DNA of 64,000 bases from Coleofasciculus sp. B1-GNL1-01. Lineage in GTDB: Bacteria; Cyanobacteriota; Cyanobacteriia; Cyanobacteriales; Coleofasciculaceae. The DNA is taken from assembly GCA_040220235.1 (NCBI GenBank), contig JAVJTO010000135.1. One strand, written 5' to 3'. Positions 1 to 15,000 of the stretch are shown here, piece after piece; within the stretch, counting starts at the first letter, position 1; each line of letters starts with the position of its first letter. Position numbers: made by a program.

Positions 1-3000
1 TTTAAACAGTGGTGTCTATGGCGTGAGAGCTTGTCAGATGAGGCTCAAAAAACAGTGGAGGTGCTGTTGGAAAAAGCAGGTACAAGTGATTGTGAACAAG
101 CCTCAGTTGAACTATCGAGTCGCACTGAGCTTTCCCTAAACGGAAACCAAATAAAAGATGTAACTCCTCTCTCTGGATTTACCAATCTGAGGAGGCTTTC
201 CCTAAGCGAAAACCAAATAAAGGATATCAGTCCTCTCTCTGGACTTACCAATCTGAATAGCCTTTTCCTAAGCGAAAACCAAATAAAAGATGTCAGTCCT
301 CTCTCTGGATTTACCAATCTGACTTTGCTTTTCCTCAACGAAAACCAAATAAAGGATATCAGTCCTCTCTCTGGACTTGCTAATCTGGCTTGGCTTTCTC
401 TGAGCAAAAACCAAATAGAAGATGTAAGTCCTCTCTCTGGACTTGCTAATCTGGCTTGGCTTAACCTCGACAAAAACCAAATAAAAGATATTAGTCCTCT
501 GTCTAGACTTACTTATCTGATTTGGCTTTCCCTTGAAAATAATCCCATAGCACAGCAAACTTGTCCAGTCAATCCTCCAAGTGTTTGCGAGTTCTGATCA
601 TAACCAATAATTATGCTATTCCGGTCAAACAGAGGATACAAAGAACCTGTTTCAATCTGACAAGTCAGAAGTCACCTGAGTTCGATATTGAAAGAGCAAG
701 CTAGAATGAAAGCCCCAAGGGTATTATTTTGACTTTCGTTTCGACTTCGGCGGTGTTCGGTGTGCGCCAAAGTATTTTTCACTGCGGTAGCGAAGCCACA
801 CTCGCAACACTTGGGGAATCTGTTCTTTTTGTTCTTTGGTTAGGGTATTATAAAGTGCTAAAGCGCGATCGCGTTCTCGGCGACAGGCAGGATTATTGTG
901 AGCATCCCAGTAGCTACGGGCAACCCGAATCCGCCGACAGACTTCTTTGATCAGTGCTTTTCCGGTGAGGGGTTGTTTCTGCTTTGCCATACTTGAATCA
1001 GAATGCATTATATAATCTCAATTCTAACCTTACAGAGTATACAGACAGATTTCCGACAATCCTATTTTATTCTTACGCCAGTCCCATCTGCCATTGTTAG
1101 TTAGGTAATAATACAAAAATATTAAAATTCAACTTGGCTTGTGTAATTAATTGCACATTGAGGTTTATTGTGTTATGTATAACCAGAAATAAAATACTTG
1201 AATGAATATTTATAGTTTGCTATAATTAAATTGTGTTTTTATCCAAACATTGAACTGCAATAATCAAAGTAATTATAGATGTTTTTTGATATAAGGCTTG
1301 AATAAGTATTTATCTAAAGGATTAAACATAAGTAAAAAATGTGTTTATTTAAATTGTTAAGAAGTTTTGATGTTATTAAACATATATAAGCATACAATTA
1401 TTTCTTTGCATAAATTAATTTGCTAATTGACTATACCAATGCGGAAAATGATAAAAAAAGTAGCCGATGATATGAGCTTGAGAGAAGTAGCGGAATATTT
1501 AGGAGAATCCAAACATTGGCTCTATAAACTTGTTAAGAGGGGAGATATTCCTGGACAGAAGGTAGAAGGACGCTGGAAATTTAGTAAAAAGGACATTGAT
1601 CAATGGCGAGACAAAATACACTTGAATCAGCATTCTCAATCTAATCGAAAGCGAATAGTTAAAGCTATTGTACAACGTCAGCATCTCAAAGAGGTACGTT
1701 TTGATGATGATACAACGACTCTCTTAGTTGCTCGTTCTGCTTGTGTGGCTAAAGATGATTGGGTAGAGCTTACGGAAGATAGTGCCTGGGTTCTGTGTAA
1801 AAATGGTTCAGCTAAAATTTTTCCATATTATGCCGCACGGGAGCAATTACAGGTGGGTGGTTTGGACTTAGAGTTTTTAATCAAGGAAATTACTGAACCC
1901 GAAGAGTTAACGGCTTACCAAGCACTGACTCAGTTTCACTATCGGAGCCGTACACTGTATGGTAGGACAGCACCACTAATTATTCGCAACTTTCATCCAA
2001 TTTACTCAAAGGTTATCGGTTACATTGAACTTACCAGTTCATTTTATATGAACAAACCTCGTCGAGCTATTTTAAATGCCCCATTTCAAACTCAATGTAT
2101 TTCCTGGGAAGCTTGGGATAAGACTGCTGCACGTAACTCTATTCACATAATCGTTCGCATCGCCCGTTGTGTGATTTATCCAGAGTTTCGCGGTTTGGGT
2201 TTAGGACAACTATTAGTCAAACATGCAGCAGAGTTTGCTCGCCATCACTGGCAAATAGCAGGATTAAAACCTTACTTTATGGAAATTTCGGCGGATATGC
2301 TGAAATTCGTACCCTTTGCGAAGAAAGCTGGCATGACTTTTATCGGTGAAACGGAGGGTAATCTCAAGCGAGTAGCTAAAGATATGGCTTATTTGCTAAA
2401 AAATCAGGAGAGAGTGCAAAACGGTGAAATTGTCAATAAAGAAAATTCATTGGGAATTGTAGATCAGCAAGTATCCCGTATGAAACGAGCCGCTAATCTA
2501 ATAAAAAAAAGGGGTTGGTGTTTGGAAGAATTTATAGGTCGTCTAGAGGATTTATCCCATAAATCTGTATTAAAAGACTTTAATATTTTTCATGAGATTG
2601 TTAGTCTTCCTAAACCAACTTACTTACAGGGATTAATTCCAGAAGCAGAATTTTTTCTACAGCAACGGGTTGCCGAAATTGCTCCTCAAAACAACTATAT
2701 TTTTCCGTCAATAAAACTAGAACCTATTCAAGAGGAAATATTTTTGCATAAAATATCCCTAACTTACCAATCCCGCGTGCGCCGTACACAGCAAACTCAT
2801 GCAATTCAACAAGCATTTAGTATCTCGCCTGATGACATATCTCACACAGTTATACGAGATCTATCTGTAAATATCAGTCCGGGAGAGGTTCTTCTAATAA
2901 CAGGACCTTCAGGTTGTGGCAAGACTACTCTTCTGAATCTTTTGTCAGAGGGAAAACATCAAGAATTGGCAGGAGATGTTCACTTTCCAGACAACTACTG

Positions 3001-12000: not shown

Positions 12001-15000
12001 GGCGGTTATGATCCCAAATTTAGACAAAACATCACAGGCTATTTTGATCCCTCTTTGTCTTAAACTACTCAATGGCAAGTAATTTTGAGCCTCAAGTTCA
12101 ACTGGTCATCACTGCACCTGAACCTTACGGAGCTGCCTTAGCGTATCGGATGCGTTGCCGAATGACGCTGGGTGTACTGACGCAACTGCTGGCTCAGGCA
12201 AAAAAGTACGTAGTAATTGCAGCACCTTTCATGCAAGCGGGATATGGTTTATCAAGGGGAGCATTGGCGGACGCTCTAAGAGCTGCCCTCCAACGCGGTG
12301 TCAATATCGATGTTGTTAGCACTGGACGGAGCCTGCAAACTCTAGATATGGATTCACTGCGGAAAGATGTTCGGGGGAACTTGAGGTTATTCCAACCCAA
12401 GGCGAACATAACAGATGAGTATCGCCTTGGTTCCCATGCAAAATTTTGTATAGCTGACGGCGAAAGGGCTTATGTTGGCAGTGCCAATTTGACAGGTCCC
12501 GGATTGTCTGAACACCTTGAAATGGGATTGCTTGTACAAGGTGATGTAGCACAGCAAATTGATGAGTTTTGGAGGTATTCTGTTGAAATTGAGATGTTTG
12601 TGTCTGTATGGTGAGTAATTTAAGTATAGATATTTTTAATTTTGAGTTGGCTGGACTAAAATCAGATACAGCCTTTTTCCTACCACTCAATCCATCAGTC
12701 TAGAACGAAACGCTTGAACTGCTGATTGAGTGCGATCATCCCCACGCAGTTTATCTAAAACATTTTGGACATAGTGTTGTACTTTTTCCGTTGACATATC
12801 TAACTGTTTAGCAATCAGGTTATTATCATACCCCTCAATAATTAACTGTAAAACCGTTAACTCCTGTTCCGTTAAAGGACAAGTAGCTATCAGTTGTTTG
12901 GAATCGCGAGGAGCCGCTTGAATGGGTTCTATATCTTGGGCGGCGGCTATCTCTGGTTGACTCTGAAGCAAGTTAGTATTTTTTAGAACAATTTTAGCAA
13001 TTCCTGGGTCAAGCCAAACATTGCCACGATGGGTTAGTTTAATCGCGTTTAATAGCTGCTCAAAGTTAATTGTCTTCATGCAATAGGAATTCGCCCCGGC
13101 TGCTAAAGCTGCCATGACTGCTTCTTCGTTTTCCTGTAAAGTTAAGATTAAAATTTTTGTCGAACAATCGGGATGATTCGCTTTAATAGTTTGAAAGCGT
13201 CGAGTTAACTCGATGCCATCCATGTCAGGAAGTCCAATGTCAACAATTCCAATATCGGGTTGAACCCGTTCCAGTAAGCTTAACCCATCAGCACCATTGG
13301 CAGCTTCACCTACCCATTCAATTTCATGACTCTCTTGTAAAGCGGTTCGGAAGCCTATACGAGTGAGTTCATGGTCTTCAATTAAAACGACTCTAATTTT
13401 ATTCATTATCAATCAGAATTTATGTCCAGGTACTTATCTGAGGATGAATGGTGCTGACTGAGGGCTGGTGGGTTTCGACTTCGCTCAACCCACCCTACGG
13501 TATGTCGAGGGTTTTGGTGTCTAAAGGGAAATCAGGCATTGCCATGCATCTTAGCGTACCCTGGAAGTCAAAGCGCGATCGCACTCCCGTAACTGCTACC
13601 CTTAGGCTAGGCGTCTCTAGACTTTCAGAATCTTGTACCCTGAAGGGTAGAACAGTTATCTATCAACACAGGAACCGCTATGCAAAAGTACCTCCCTTTA
13701 GTTGCTCGGATTTTTCTCTCCGTTATTTTTATCAAGTCGGGGATTAGTAAAATTTTCGGTTTCGCTGGCACTCAAGAGTATATGGCTGCTAGCGGAATTC
13801 CTTTGGCGGGTATCGTTCTCGTTCCGACTATCCTTGTATTAGTGGGTGGTGGACTCTCGGTTTTATTCGGTTACAAAGCCCGTTTGGGAGCCTTATTATT
13901 GATTGGCTTTTTAATTCCCGCTACCTTGATTTTTCACACCCAGTTTCCTGAAGAAGAAAATGCCTTTTTCAAGAACTTAGGCTTAATGGGCGGATTGTTG
14001 ATGGTTGTTGCATTTGGTGCAGGTGAAATTAGTTTGGATGAACGCAGCGAATCCTCTTCTATGCAGTCGGCGAAATAAGTAGGTGGGAACAATTAAAGTT
14101 AACGGTGGAGATCGTCATTCGTCCTTCGTCATTCGTCCTTTGTAAGGGTTTGATGTTTTTTAACATAACTTCATAAGGTTGAGTTTATTTCCACCAACCT
14201 ACTTAGTTTGGTCATTTGATTAGCATAAACTGAGGAATAGAAAGGAGGTGCAAGCTGTTCAGCATTTCAATCTTAATAAAATAATGGCGAATTTCTTGTA
14301 ATGCGTTTAGCGAAGCCATGCCGCAGGCTTTGCATCTTGCTCGCTACTCATACCAAATTTATCGCTACTCAGACCAAATTTAAATGTATGACAGATTATT
14401 GGTAATTAACTGATGAGAAAAAATCCGCGATCGCACTTCAATATCCGTTACTATGTATGGAGGAAATACCTCCGAATTTTCAGGAGAAGACAATTATGCC
14501 AATCCAAAGCCAAAACACAATGGGAAAAGTTTTCACCCAATTGACAATTATTAACCGAGCTGACCAAATTCGGGCAGAAGATGGAACAATTTCACCTGAA
14601 CAAATTCGGTCACTCACGCTGGAAAATGTATTGGTAGACACAGGAGCTACGACTTTGTGTTTGCCATCTGATGCAATTGCTTCACTGGGACTAAAAATCC
14701 TCAAAGAAGTTGATGTCGCGACAGCCATGGGTATTGGCAAAGCCCGAATTTTTCGAGATGCTACCCTATCTATCTTTGGTAGAGAAGGAACCTTTGAGTG
14801 TTTGGAATTACCTGGTGGTGCAGACGCGCTTTTGGGCGTGATACCGTTGGAAGCATTGGGGTTAGACATAGATGTGCAAAATCAAACCTTGAAGCCGTTA
14901 CCCATCAGTCCAACAGATACCTATTTGACGATTTTGTAGGAATCTATAATTAATGGAAGAAGCTGGAAAACATCAGTTGGGTTTCGACTTCGCTCAACCT

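What a model noticed while it worked through the whole genome (the two positions that open the first line are those of the whole stretch)
1439..12614. DISARM operon led by a GNAT-ABC ATPase-ASCH protein in place of the methyltransferase
A five-gene operon joins an HTH-GNAT acetyltransferase-ABC ATPase-ASCH protein (g06137, 775 aa) to DrmE, DrmA, DrmB and DrmC, with no DNA methyltransferase nearby; the same order recurs in at least eight phyla. I read g06137 as the missing self-marking module of this DISARM class: an ATP-driven acetyltransferase that writes (GNAT) and reads or erases (ASCH, the fold of N4-acetylcytidine amidohydrolases) an acetyl mark such as N4-acetylcytosine on DNA, so that DrmABC attack unmarked phage DNA. 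New would be an acetyl-based instead of a methyl-based self mark in a restriction-like defence system.
Evidence so far: g06137 Pfam: HTH_17 12-58, Acetyltransf_1 240-294, ABC_tran 473-594, ASCH 673-764; acetyl-CoA motif R-G-L-G-L-G-Q, Walker A, LSNGQ signature and ASCH G-R-K...R-G-R present. Downstream genes: PADLOC DrmE 3e-8 (Pfam DrmE_C 6e-61), DrmA 2e-172, DrmB 1e-48, DrmC 3.5e-17; g06137 hits no DISARM or methylase model. 682 homologues of residues 60-460, 50-75% identical, in Cyanobacteria, Acidobacteriota, Chloroflexota, Nitrospira, Poribacteria, Latescibacteria and others; alignment of 10: 60% mean column identity. Of 17 loci fetched with the GNAT part, 13 have 2.5 kb or more downstream: 11 of 13 go on DrmE-DrmA-DrmB(-DrmC), 2 (Bacillota, Rhodobacter) have other partners. 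Pfam of 63 flanking ORFs in 10 [...]
(Added by a program. Inside this text positions count along the whole contig: contig position 1 is position 1 of the stretch shown here. "Call 12" and the like, gene names such as g00115 and contig names such as C1 are that model's own, and its searches are not shown. The text may have been shortened before it was handed on; [...] marks where a part breaks off. The agent that wrote the report below was given it as the finding of a first reader that could run no searches.)

Follow-up and report, generated by a model that had tools for sequence, protein, structure and literature searches.

The report
Acyltransferase replaces methylase in DISARM defence
A bacterial anti-phage gene cluster carries an acyltransferase-ATPase in the place where its relatives carry a DNA methyltransferase, which suggests, though no chemistry has been shown, that these cells mark their own DNA with an acyl group instead of a methyl group.

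Summary
The five-gene operon is real: HTH-GNAT-ABC ATPase-ASCH, then drmE, drmA, drmB, drmC, with no methyltransferase inside it. Of 41 genome loci of the GNAT protein, 26 lead into Drm genes in eight phyla. Eleven lead into a second module: HerA, an unknown protein, a PLD nuclease and an AAA ATPase.

Searching from DrmA, the GNAT-linked helicases form one clade (SH-aLRT 100). In ten sister loci a C5 or amino-methyltransferase occupies the same slot before drmE. The GNAT is related to a phage ABC-linked GNAT and to the DruA/DUF4338 family by profile comparison, and ties best with phage Mu Mom by fold.

Best reading (about 0.6): an exchangeable DNA-acylation module that writes the self mark. 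The base is open: N4-acetylcytosine (ASCH link) or a Mom/DruA-like adenine mark. ASCH is absent from four Drm-linked members, so it is accessory. Against this reading: archaeal relatives sit in housekeeping contexts, and DrmAB can discriminate by DNA structure. No chemistry is shown. Verdict: a new variant of DISARM.

The parts
1439..3766 (+). HTH-GNAT-ABC ATPase-ASCH protein (g06137, 775 aa), the putative DNA-acylating (self-marking) enzyme
1472..1612 (+). N-terminal excisionase-like HTH (residues 12-58); resembles MADS MAD1 (below cut-off); seen in the closest relatives, not in most others; likely autoregulation (inferred)
1646..1852 (+). small conserved beta-rich segment (residues about 70-138) before the GNAT core; fold not identified
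1853..2638 (+). GNAT domain with helical insert (residues about 139-400); H167-Y168, R208, R243, R251 present in essentially all of 196 homologues; acyl-CoA motif PEFRGLGLG
2726..3418 (+). soluble ABC ATPase domain (Walker A GPSGCGKT, signature LSNGQ, Walker B DE and D-loop conserved; switch His replaced by S/Q); closest phage and plasmid matches are SSU5-like ParB-ParB-ABC-GNAT clusters
3437..3748 (+). ASCH domain with G686-K688-T691-R693 and D736, placed like YqfB K21/T24/R26/E74; accessory reader or eraser
3928..6486 (+). drmE (852 aa)
6489..10163 (+). drmA SF2 helicase (1224 aa); member of a GNAT-linked clade; homologous to solved DrmA 7s9v
10177..12063 (+). drmB (DUF1998/MZB zinc-binding, 628 aa)
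12072..12614 (+). drmC PLD nuclease (180 aa, one HKD motif at residue 122)
1010..1438 (+). AT-rich leader; a sigma-70-like site at 1198-1226 and short inverted repeats, none shown to exceed chance

Best explanation
The operon is a class-II-like DISARM restriction system whose marking enzyme is not a methyltransferase. Proposed working, with the basis of each step. (1) The GNAT domain transfers an acyl group from an acyl-CoA to an exocyclic amine of a base in host DNA, probably at a sequence motif (inferred from kinship and gene position). The base is N4 of cytosine or N6 of adenine; I put these near even. (2) The fused soluble ABC ATPase binds ATP, and probably couples it to DNA engagement or base exposure (motifs shown, role inferred). 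(3) DrmAB loads on DNA with 5' overhangs and is less active on modified DNA (shown for a Serratia DISARM with 5mC; extension to an acyl mark inferred); DrmC or a substituted HNH nuclease may cut. (4) ASCH, where present, reads the mark or strips it from recycled nucleotides so that phage DNA built from host nucleotides is not marked (YqfB hydrolyses N4-acetyl-dC and its triphosphate; role here inferred). (5) The HTH regulates the operon (inferred). The marking module is exchangeable: one lineage of it serves a HerA/unknown/PLD/AAA effector set instead.
For: Slot swap: in ten sister drmE-A-B loci a methyltransferase or methyltransferase-like gene sits just before drmE (C5: L081, L103, L104; amino-MTase: L090, L102, L107, L108, L109, and weaker hits L121, L130), where this clade has GNAT-ABC. 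From the DrmA side, 5 of 5 close DrmA loci with sequence upstream of drmE carry GNAT-ABC, and none of the other 97 DrmA-centred loci has a GNAT hit. GNAT-linked DrmAs are one clade, SH-aLRT 100, branch 0.62. GNAT and DrmA distances correlate (rho 0.63, n = 24, 0 of 2000 permutations). A methyltransferase lies within about 4 kb in only 5 of 27 GNAT-Drm loci, of mixed families and positions, against 26 of 43 well-flanked non-GNAT DrmA loci within 4.5 kb. Extended downstream regions of 18 loci gave no hit to my methyltransferase profiles. Second effector module in 11 of 41 loci, nested in the tree (support 1.0). Profile matches: SSU5-type phage GNAT 97.6%, E 3e-12; DUF4338/DruA 95.4%, E 2e-8. Fold: Mom Z 11.9, rmsd 3.8, 181 aligned, tied first; TmcA first by Foldseek, E 9e-5. 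[quoted passage not shown] Archaeal homologues lie head-to-head with a standalone ASCH in 11 of 16 loci.
Against: No modified base has been detected. The fold matches do not single out a substrate: YhbS ties with Mom and dozens of protein and small-molecule acetyltransferases lie within 2 Z units; there is no sequence-level match to Mom (0.2%). The archaeal homologues sit among housekeeping genes with no Drm gene or methyltransferase hit, so the wider family has a non-defence use, possibly on RNA. DrmAB discriminates by DNA structure and restricts phages that lack the methylation motif, and 17 of 43 non-GNAT DrmA loci show no methyltransferase by my profiles, so a self mark may not be required. 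The host genome has eight strong C5 methyltransferase matches and further amino-methyltransferases elsewhere, so a mark in trans is not excluded. The ABC switch His is not conserved. The distance correlation shows co-transfer, not function, and kin loci are not independent.
Confidence: 0.6

Rival explanations
1. The GNAT acetylates RNA or protein rather than DNA. It is either a phage-triggered effector (for example on tRNA), gated by the ABC ATPase and undone by ASCH, or a regulator that acetylates DrmA/DrmE or HerA.
For: TmcA (tRNA ac4C writer) is the first Foldseek match and NAT10 is ninth. ASCH proteins erase ac4C from tRNA (passages of a preprint). Archaeal homologues with ASCH lie in housekeeping contexts. 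Bell 2020 argues for tRNA-acetylating toxin roles of GNAT-EVE/ASCH operons, and Rakesh 2024 treats DUF4338 GNATs fused to DndF as suicidal co-effectors.
Against: It does not explain why the gene occupies the methyltransferase slot and why methyltransferases are scarce in this clade. Four Drm-linked members have no ASCH to act as antidote. Phage homologues sit with ParB-like genes next to terminase, a setting described for DNA modification (recalled).
Confidence: 0.2
2. The enzyme modifies DNA but tags the invader (for example single-stranded or replicating phage DNA) for attack, with ASCH as the reader that recruits the Drm or HerA complex.
For: PUA/ASCH-type domains serve as modified-base readers in modification-dependent restriction. 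DrmAB prefers single-stranded or overhang DNA, and TmcA-type acetylation acts on unpaired bases (recalled).
Against: The genes it replaces are self-marking methyltransferases. ASCH is dispensable. Phages carry the homologous GNAT+ABC pair, which fits protection better than tagging for destruction.
Confidence: 0.08
3. An ordinary class II DISARM that lost its methyltransferase (or uses one in trans, or none), with the GNAT-ABC gene a co-travelling but separate defence gene.
For: Many methyltransferases exist elsewhere in the genome. Many loci lie in defence islands beside pAgo-SIR2, Tiamat, Azaca, ShosTA. DrmAB loci without any detected methyltransferase exist. A terminator-like hairpin and a 161-bp gap separate g06137 from drmE here (chance level).
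Against: The pair is kept across eight phyla; the reading frames overlap or lie within 50 bp in 14 of 27 listed loci, two of which are one contig; the DrmA clade is specific to the GNAT. One locus shows the whole operon collapsed to a GNAT-DrmC fusion, lost as a unit (L036).
Confidence: 0.08

Closest known systems
DISARM class II (drmE, drmA, drmB, drmC, drmMII)
   Same: All four Drm genes are present in order; DrmA is homologous to solved DrmA 7s9v and nests among C5- and amino-methyltransferase-linked DrmAs.
   Different: No DrmMII; a GNAT-ABC-ASCH protein leads the operon. DrmA, DrmB and DrmC score under the NCBIfam cut-offs and form their own clade.
Druantia type I (DruA/DUF4338 GNAT plus DruE YprA-like helicase)
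   Same: A YprA-family helicase system with a GNAT of the DUF4338 kind and no methylase domain; an adenine modification call on host DNA was reported. Profile match 95.4%; distant homologues of g06137 pass the Pfam DruA cut-off (P0231, P0237).
   Different: g06137 itself does not hit PF14236; it is fused to ABC ATPase and ASCH; the effectors are DrmE/A/B/C, not DruB-E. That DruA writes the reported mark is my inference, not stated in the passages read.
Phage GNAT + ABC ATPase predicted DNA acyl-modification system (Iyer et al. 2013, as cited in PMC7824862)
   Same: Both domains of g06137 match the separate ABC and GNAT genes of SSU5-like phages and phage-plasmids; the ABC also matches phage pT24, the example named in the paper (E 8e-7).
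   Different: Here the two are fused in GNAT-ABC order, chromosomal, and coupled to restriction-like effectors. My GNAT profile did not hit the pT24 neighbours, and I could not read the 2013 paper.
Phage Mu Mom (adenine-modifying GNAT)
   Same: Tied-best fold match with 181 aligned residues; a phage Mom is fourth in the viral library.
   Different: No sequence-profile match; Mom has no ATPase and serves anti-restriction.
TmcA/NAT10 (RNA ac4C writers) and YqfB/ASCH (ac4C erasers)
   Same: ATPase-plus-GNAT logic (recalled); TmcA first by Foldseek; ASCH catalytic-type residues kept in 104 of 128 ASCH-bearing homologues.
   Different: The ATPase here is ABC-type, not helicase-like; the context is DNA restriction; no activity tested.
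BRC (BREX-related capture) systems with HerA, GNAT and TGT (PMC12839542)
   Same: A HerA-centred defence module with a GNAT proposed to mark host DNA (passages), parallel to the second context found here.
   Different: BRC as described has PglZ, BrxC-like, BrxA-like and TGT genes; the second context here has HerA, an unknown 400-aa protein, PLD and AAA, and its GNAT is fused to ABC-ASCH.

Membership tests
DISARM class II | drmA helicase, drmB DUF1998, drmC PLD in one operon | tested here: met
   NCBIfam scores below cut-off
DISARM class II | drmE present | tested here: met
   Pfam DrmE_C 1e-60, NCBIfam DrmE_fam above cut-off
DISARM class II | DrmMII C5 methyltransferase in the operon | tested here: not met
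   none in or beside the window operon; none between drm genes or directly after them in 27 loci
DISARM class II | protects against phage | not testable with these tools
   no experiment possible
Druantia type I | DruA (PF14236) family protein | tested here: inconclusive
   no direct Pfam hit for g06137; profile-profile 95.4%; distant homologues pass the cut-off
Druantia type I | DruE single-chain helicase with DruB/C/D | tested here: not met
   the helicase is split as DrmA + DrmB and PADLOC lists no Dru model for the five genes
Phage GNAT+ABC DNA acyl-modification family (Iyer 2013) | GNAT homologous to the ABC-coupled phage GNAT, with an ABC ATPase of the same family | tested here: met
   SSU5-type GNAT 97.6%, E 3e-12; ABC 35% identity, E 8e-31. 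That SSU5-type genes are the family meant in the 2013 paper is inferred through pT24
Phage GNAT+ABC DNA acyl-modification family (Iyer 2013) | acylates a DNA base | not testable with these tools
   predicted only, also in the citing paper
Mom family | sequence or profile similarity to Mu Mom | tested here: inconclusive
   no profile match to the single Mu sequence; fold match tied first
YqfB-type ASCH amidohydrolase | Lys, Thr, Arg of the octapeptide and a distal acid | tested here: met
   K688, T691, R693 by spacing against K21/T24/R26; D736 in place of E74 is my placement by motif, without a direct alignment
YqfB-type ASCH amidohydrolase | hydrolyses N4-acylcytosine | not testable with these tools
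   needs an assay; no YqfB match in a PDB sequence search
ABC transporter | transmembrane partner in the operon | tested here: not met
   highest 19-residue hydropathy 1.17-1.73 across the five proteins, and no permease family hit

The most novel reading that the evidence does not exclude
A soluble ABC ATPase-coupled GNAT writes a sequence-specific acyl mark (most novel case: N4-acetyldeoxycytidine) on bacterial DNA. The mark is the self signal of two different restriction-like machines (DrmEABC and HerA-X-PLD-AAA); the fused ASCH keeps it out of the nucleotide pool or reads it; SSU5-like phages carry the same writer, and some archaea use it as an orphan modifier.
Probability: 0.28. Interest if true: 0.9.

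Novelty: new variant of a known kind. Interest (0 to 1): 0.7.

Why it matters
Self marks shown for bacterial restriction-like defence are methylation, phosphorothioation and 7-deazaguanine insertion (recalled). An acyl mark would add a new chemistry and a new natural DNA base modification. The operon gives a compact, testable case: one writer gene, a known reader complex (DrmAB), and natural controls in sister loci that carry a methyltransferase in the same slot. It would also test two standing predictions at once: what the phage GNAT+ABC pair does, and which gene makes the modification signal of methylase-less Druantia type I (DruA is the obvious candidate from the homology shown here). The second module (HerA, unknown, PLD, AAA) is a further candidate defence system with no match as a set in the libraries I scanned.

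Tried and rejected
Iyer 2013 was not held under DOI or PMC id; I rely on two papers that cite it. Ten literature searches listed no paper whose title or abstract start describes a GNAT-led DISARM; some searches listed only part of their hits, and most subscription papers are not in the library. In the YprA preprint the main text has no 'GNAT', 'ABC' or 'DrmE' and its four supplements had only chance word hits (the largest file was cut when stored); its figure legend mentions many uncharacterised DISARM-like classes, so this clade may be drawn there. bioRxiv supplements were not seen.

Whole-protein fold searches were filled by the ABC domain; the beta-rich segment and ASCH were not tested by fold. 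A PDB profile search with the full alignment gave only ABC proteins in the rows shown. Viral-contig scans with the single protein, single DrmA and the unknown 400-aa protein found nothing. The unknown protein has no Pfam, PADLOC or clear PDB match; atlas leads to FokI/AlwI/BpuJI recognition domains are under 0.9. Earlier findings of this scan: nothing shown. Promoter and terminator scans were at chance level; the repeat scan gave only short pairs. An ABC transporter role was rejected. The window methyltransferase at 27 kb was rejected as the partner because it pairs with a DraIII-like nuclease. No complex prediction was run, since no binding claim is made.

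
Full report
Observation. The five ORFs are present at the stated positions on the + strand. 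g06137 has HTH_17, Acetyltransf_1, ABC_tran and ASCH hits. The next four genes match DrmE, DrmA, DrmB and DrmC in PADLOC. In NCBIfam only the DrmE family model passes its cut-off, so these are divergent members. None of the five looks like a permease by family hit or hydropathy, so the ABC domain is soluble. The genome holds one copy of each gene. In 400 other genomes of the same phylum the GNAT part gave one weak match (E 4e-5) and DrmB gave seven distant ones: the distribution is patchy, as expected of a horizontally moved defence locus.

Contexts seen from the GNAT side. A scan of GTDB genomes returned 41 loci. By local ORF calling and comparison, 24 continue into drmE (two of them only as far as a contig end), 2 continue into an HNH gene and then drmA (L033, L041), 11 continue into a different module, and 4 show neither. 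Those four are L002 (contig ends), L018 (1.7 kb of flank without Drm), L036 and L040. The Drm-linked records span eight phyla by title. The second module is HerA (DUF87), an unknown protein of about 400 aa, a PLD nuclease and an AAA ATPase (complete in 10 loci, partial in L032). Its unknown protein was found in 3 of 301 genomes of one phylum, all three already known as GNAT-linked. In the GNAT tree this group, with one locus of unknown context (L044), is a single clade (support 1.0) nested among Drm-linked proteins, so the enzyme changed partners once. L036 is a fusion of the GNAT N-part (83% identical) to DrmC (84%), a collapse of the whole operon.

Contexts seen from the DrmA side. To avoid selecting on the GNAT, I scanned metagenome and viral contigs with a DrmA alignment; the alignment was built from GNAT-linked loci, the patterns were helicase motifs, and 80 of 560 metagenome hits and all 24 viral hits were kept. 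Seven loci are 50% or more identical. Five have sequence upstream of drmE and all five carry GNAT-ABC there (L076, L078, L079, L080, L156); L077 and L086 are cut short. None of the other 97 has a GNAT hit, though many have short flanks. In trees of DrmA the GNAT-linked proteins, with L077, form one clade (SH-aLRT 100, branch 0.62 on 45 chosen sequences; the 126-sequence tree shows the same clade, and its printed supports may be shifted by re-rooting). In sister loci the gene before drmE is a C5 methyltransferase (L081, L103, L104 with Vsr between) or an amino-methyltransferase (L090, L102, L107, L108, L109; L121 and L130 have only weak methyltransferase-like hits but cluster with L109 and L122). 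L093 and L096 have a C5 enzyme right after drmC. This is the strongest evidence: one slot, filled by methyltransferases of several kinds or by this protein.

Is a methyltransferase simply further away? Extended regions of 6.5 to 17.5 kb beyond the Drm block in 18 loci gave no hit to four profiles built from the host's own methyltransferases. Those profiles are small and missed at least one family, so I also scanned 108 flanking ORFs of 200 aa or more, within about 4 kb of the block in 27 loci, against PADLOC (one 4540-aa ORF left out). Five loci have a methyltransferase (L001, L011, L014, L017, L020), of mixed families, all upstream, two on the other strand, one with its own nuclease. By comparison, 26 of 43 non-GNAT DrmA loci with at least 3 kb of flank on both sides have one within 4.5 kb, and 6 of 8 of those with drmE; methods and distances differ, so this is a contrast, not a test. 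Against my reading: 17 of those 43 have none detected, among them a clade with ATPase and UvrD partners, and the host genome has many methyltransferases elsewhere.

What kind of GNAT. A model of residues 70-429 has pLDDT 94. VIA-align ties YhbS (Z 11.9, rmsd 3.3, 152 aligned) with phage Mu Mom (Z 11.9, rmsd 3.8, 181 aligned) and an arylalkylamine acetyltransferase (Z 11.6, 183 aligned); many unrelated GNATs follow within 2 units. Foldseek ranks TmcA first (E 9e-5) and Mom fifteenth; in the viral library a phage Mom is fourth. The fold alone therefore does not fix the substrate. Sequence profiles are more telling. The GNAT matches the GNAT of SSU5-like phages (97.6%, E 3e-12, three template sequences) and 12 DUF4338/DruA-family proteins (95.4%, E 2e-8), but not the single Mu Mom sequence (single-pair E-values). 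The ABC domain's best phage and plasmid matches are in the same SSU5-like clusters, ParB-ParB-ABC-GNAT, beside terminase in the two records where the flank was shown. It also matches phage pT24, named in PMC7824862 as carrying a GNAT+ABC system predicted to acylate a DNA base (passages); my GNAT profile did not hit the pT24 neighbours. PMC10853773 calls DUF4338 a GNAT (passages). [quoted passage not shown]

ASCH and the base. K688, T691, R693 and an acid at 736 are all kept in 104 of 128 ASCH-bearing homologues, spaced like YqfB K21, T24, R26 and E74; YqfB hydrolyses N4-acetyl-dC and its triphosphate (passages). A 2026 preprint reports that all ASCH proteins it examined removed ac4C from tRNA (passages and one section). 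ASCH is absent from four early-branching Drm-linked members (L045, L078, L079, L080), had no profile hit in L019, and is a separate ORF in L033, L037, L038 and L041, where frameshift errors are possible. It is thus accessory. Distant archaeal homologues (16 strong matches, besides the centre genome, in 251 genomes of one phylum) have no Drm gene or methyltransferase hit nearby, but 11 of 16 lie head-to-head with a standalone ASCH of a different subtype (these genomes may be kin). That repeated pairing favours N4-acetylcytosine chemistry, yet it also shows a use outside defence and leaves RNA open as the target. The DruA and Mom links favour adenine. I leave the base open.

ATPase. Walker A, signature, Walker B acids and D-loop are conserved in 120 of 120 close homologues at nearly every position; the switch His position is not. 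ATP binding is likely; hydrolysis and its purpose are inferred.

Mechanism and limits. The most likely working is a restriction-modification-like system with an acyl self mark (about 0.6). DrmAB is known to load on 5' overhangs and to be slowed by 5mC, and DISARM restricts phages lacking the motif (passages), so the mark may be a second checkpoint rather than the only one. GNAT and DrmA distances correlate (rho 0.63, n = 24), which shows joint travel only. Nothing here demonstrates chemistry or defence.

Comparison with print. The parts are known or predicted: DISARM class II effectors, a predicted phage GNAT+ABC DNA acylase, GNAT with ASCH in (PIN)-GNAT-EVE operons proposed to acetylate a DNA base (passages), and a GNAT proposed as self-marker in BRC systems (passages). 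My ten searches and the YprA preprint (abstract, sections 5 and 26, passages, word search of supplements) did not show this combination; Iyer 2013 and the original DISARM paper were not read. Other papers were seen as passages only. It fails the DrmMII test for class II, so I file it as a new variant of DISARM with a candidate new marking chemistry. Interest 0.7.

Noticed in passing
L021:12445-16859 and L022, L025-L030, L032, L034, L039: A second conserved module behind the same GNAT-ABC-ASCH gene: HerA (DUF87), an unknown 400-aa protein (weak atlas leads to FokI/AlwI/BpuJI recognition domains), PLD nuclease, AAA ATPase. A candidate undescribed defence system in five phyla by record title.
   Followed up: partly
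L201-L216 (archaeal genomes, phylum of G434): Distant GNAT-zinc ribbon-ABC homologues of about 630 aa in housekeeping neighbourhoods, head-to-head with a standalone ASCH gene in 11 of 16 loci; a candidate ac4C writer-eraser pair unrelated in ATPase type to TmcA/NAT10.
   Followed up: partly
L049:2629-5773, L046:4614-8052, L047:2275-6540: SSU5-like phages and phage-plasmids carry ParB-ParB-ABC-(small genes)-GNAT; the GNAT has no Pfam hit and is annotated as hypothetical or as an ABC transporter. Virion DNA of these phages is a direct test of the chemistry.
   Followed up: partly
L082, L087, L089, L092, L095, L097, L099 (e.g. L092:4765-20489): A DrmA-DrmB clade without drmE, drmC or a detected methyltransferase, flanked by two HATPase_c proteins, a UvrD helicase, a NERD-helicase and unknown genes; a related clade (L117, L118, L120, L128) has a Dam-like enzyme instead.
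   Followed up: partly
L036:10103-11080: In-frame fusion of the GNAT N-part to DrmC: the operon collapsed by an internal deletion (or a mis-assembly).
   Followed up: yes
L033:1450-2313, L041:2079-2942, L005:2966-3601: An HNH nuclease replaces drmE in two loci and is inserted before drmE in a third.
   Followed up: partly
L013:19984-21861 and L056: drmC is missing and a pAgo-SIR2 pair and a Tiamat gene follow drmB directly.
   Followed up: no
L040:9911-15029: In an archaeal record the GNAT-ABC gene is broken in two and is followed by an unknown 527-aa gene, a C5 methyltransferase and a Vsr-like gene; possible replacement of the GNAT by a methyltransferase, or sequencing error.
   Followed up: partly
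L019:1185-11809: The GNAT gene and the drmE-A-B-C block are divergently oriented, unlike the other loci.
   Followed up: no
window 27096-29813: A type II restriction-modification pair: N6 methyltransferase (27096-29135, +) converging on a DraIII-like nuclease (29130-29813, -), lower in GC than its surroundings.
   Followed up: yes
L002:748-2442: A 2.4-kb contig titled Bacteroidales is 95% identical to g06137, far closer than any other record; probably mis-binned.
   Followed up: no
Druantia type I (literature): DruA/DUF4338 is a GNAT related to g06137; it is the natural candidate for the unexplained adenine modification signal of Druantia type I.
   Followed up: partly
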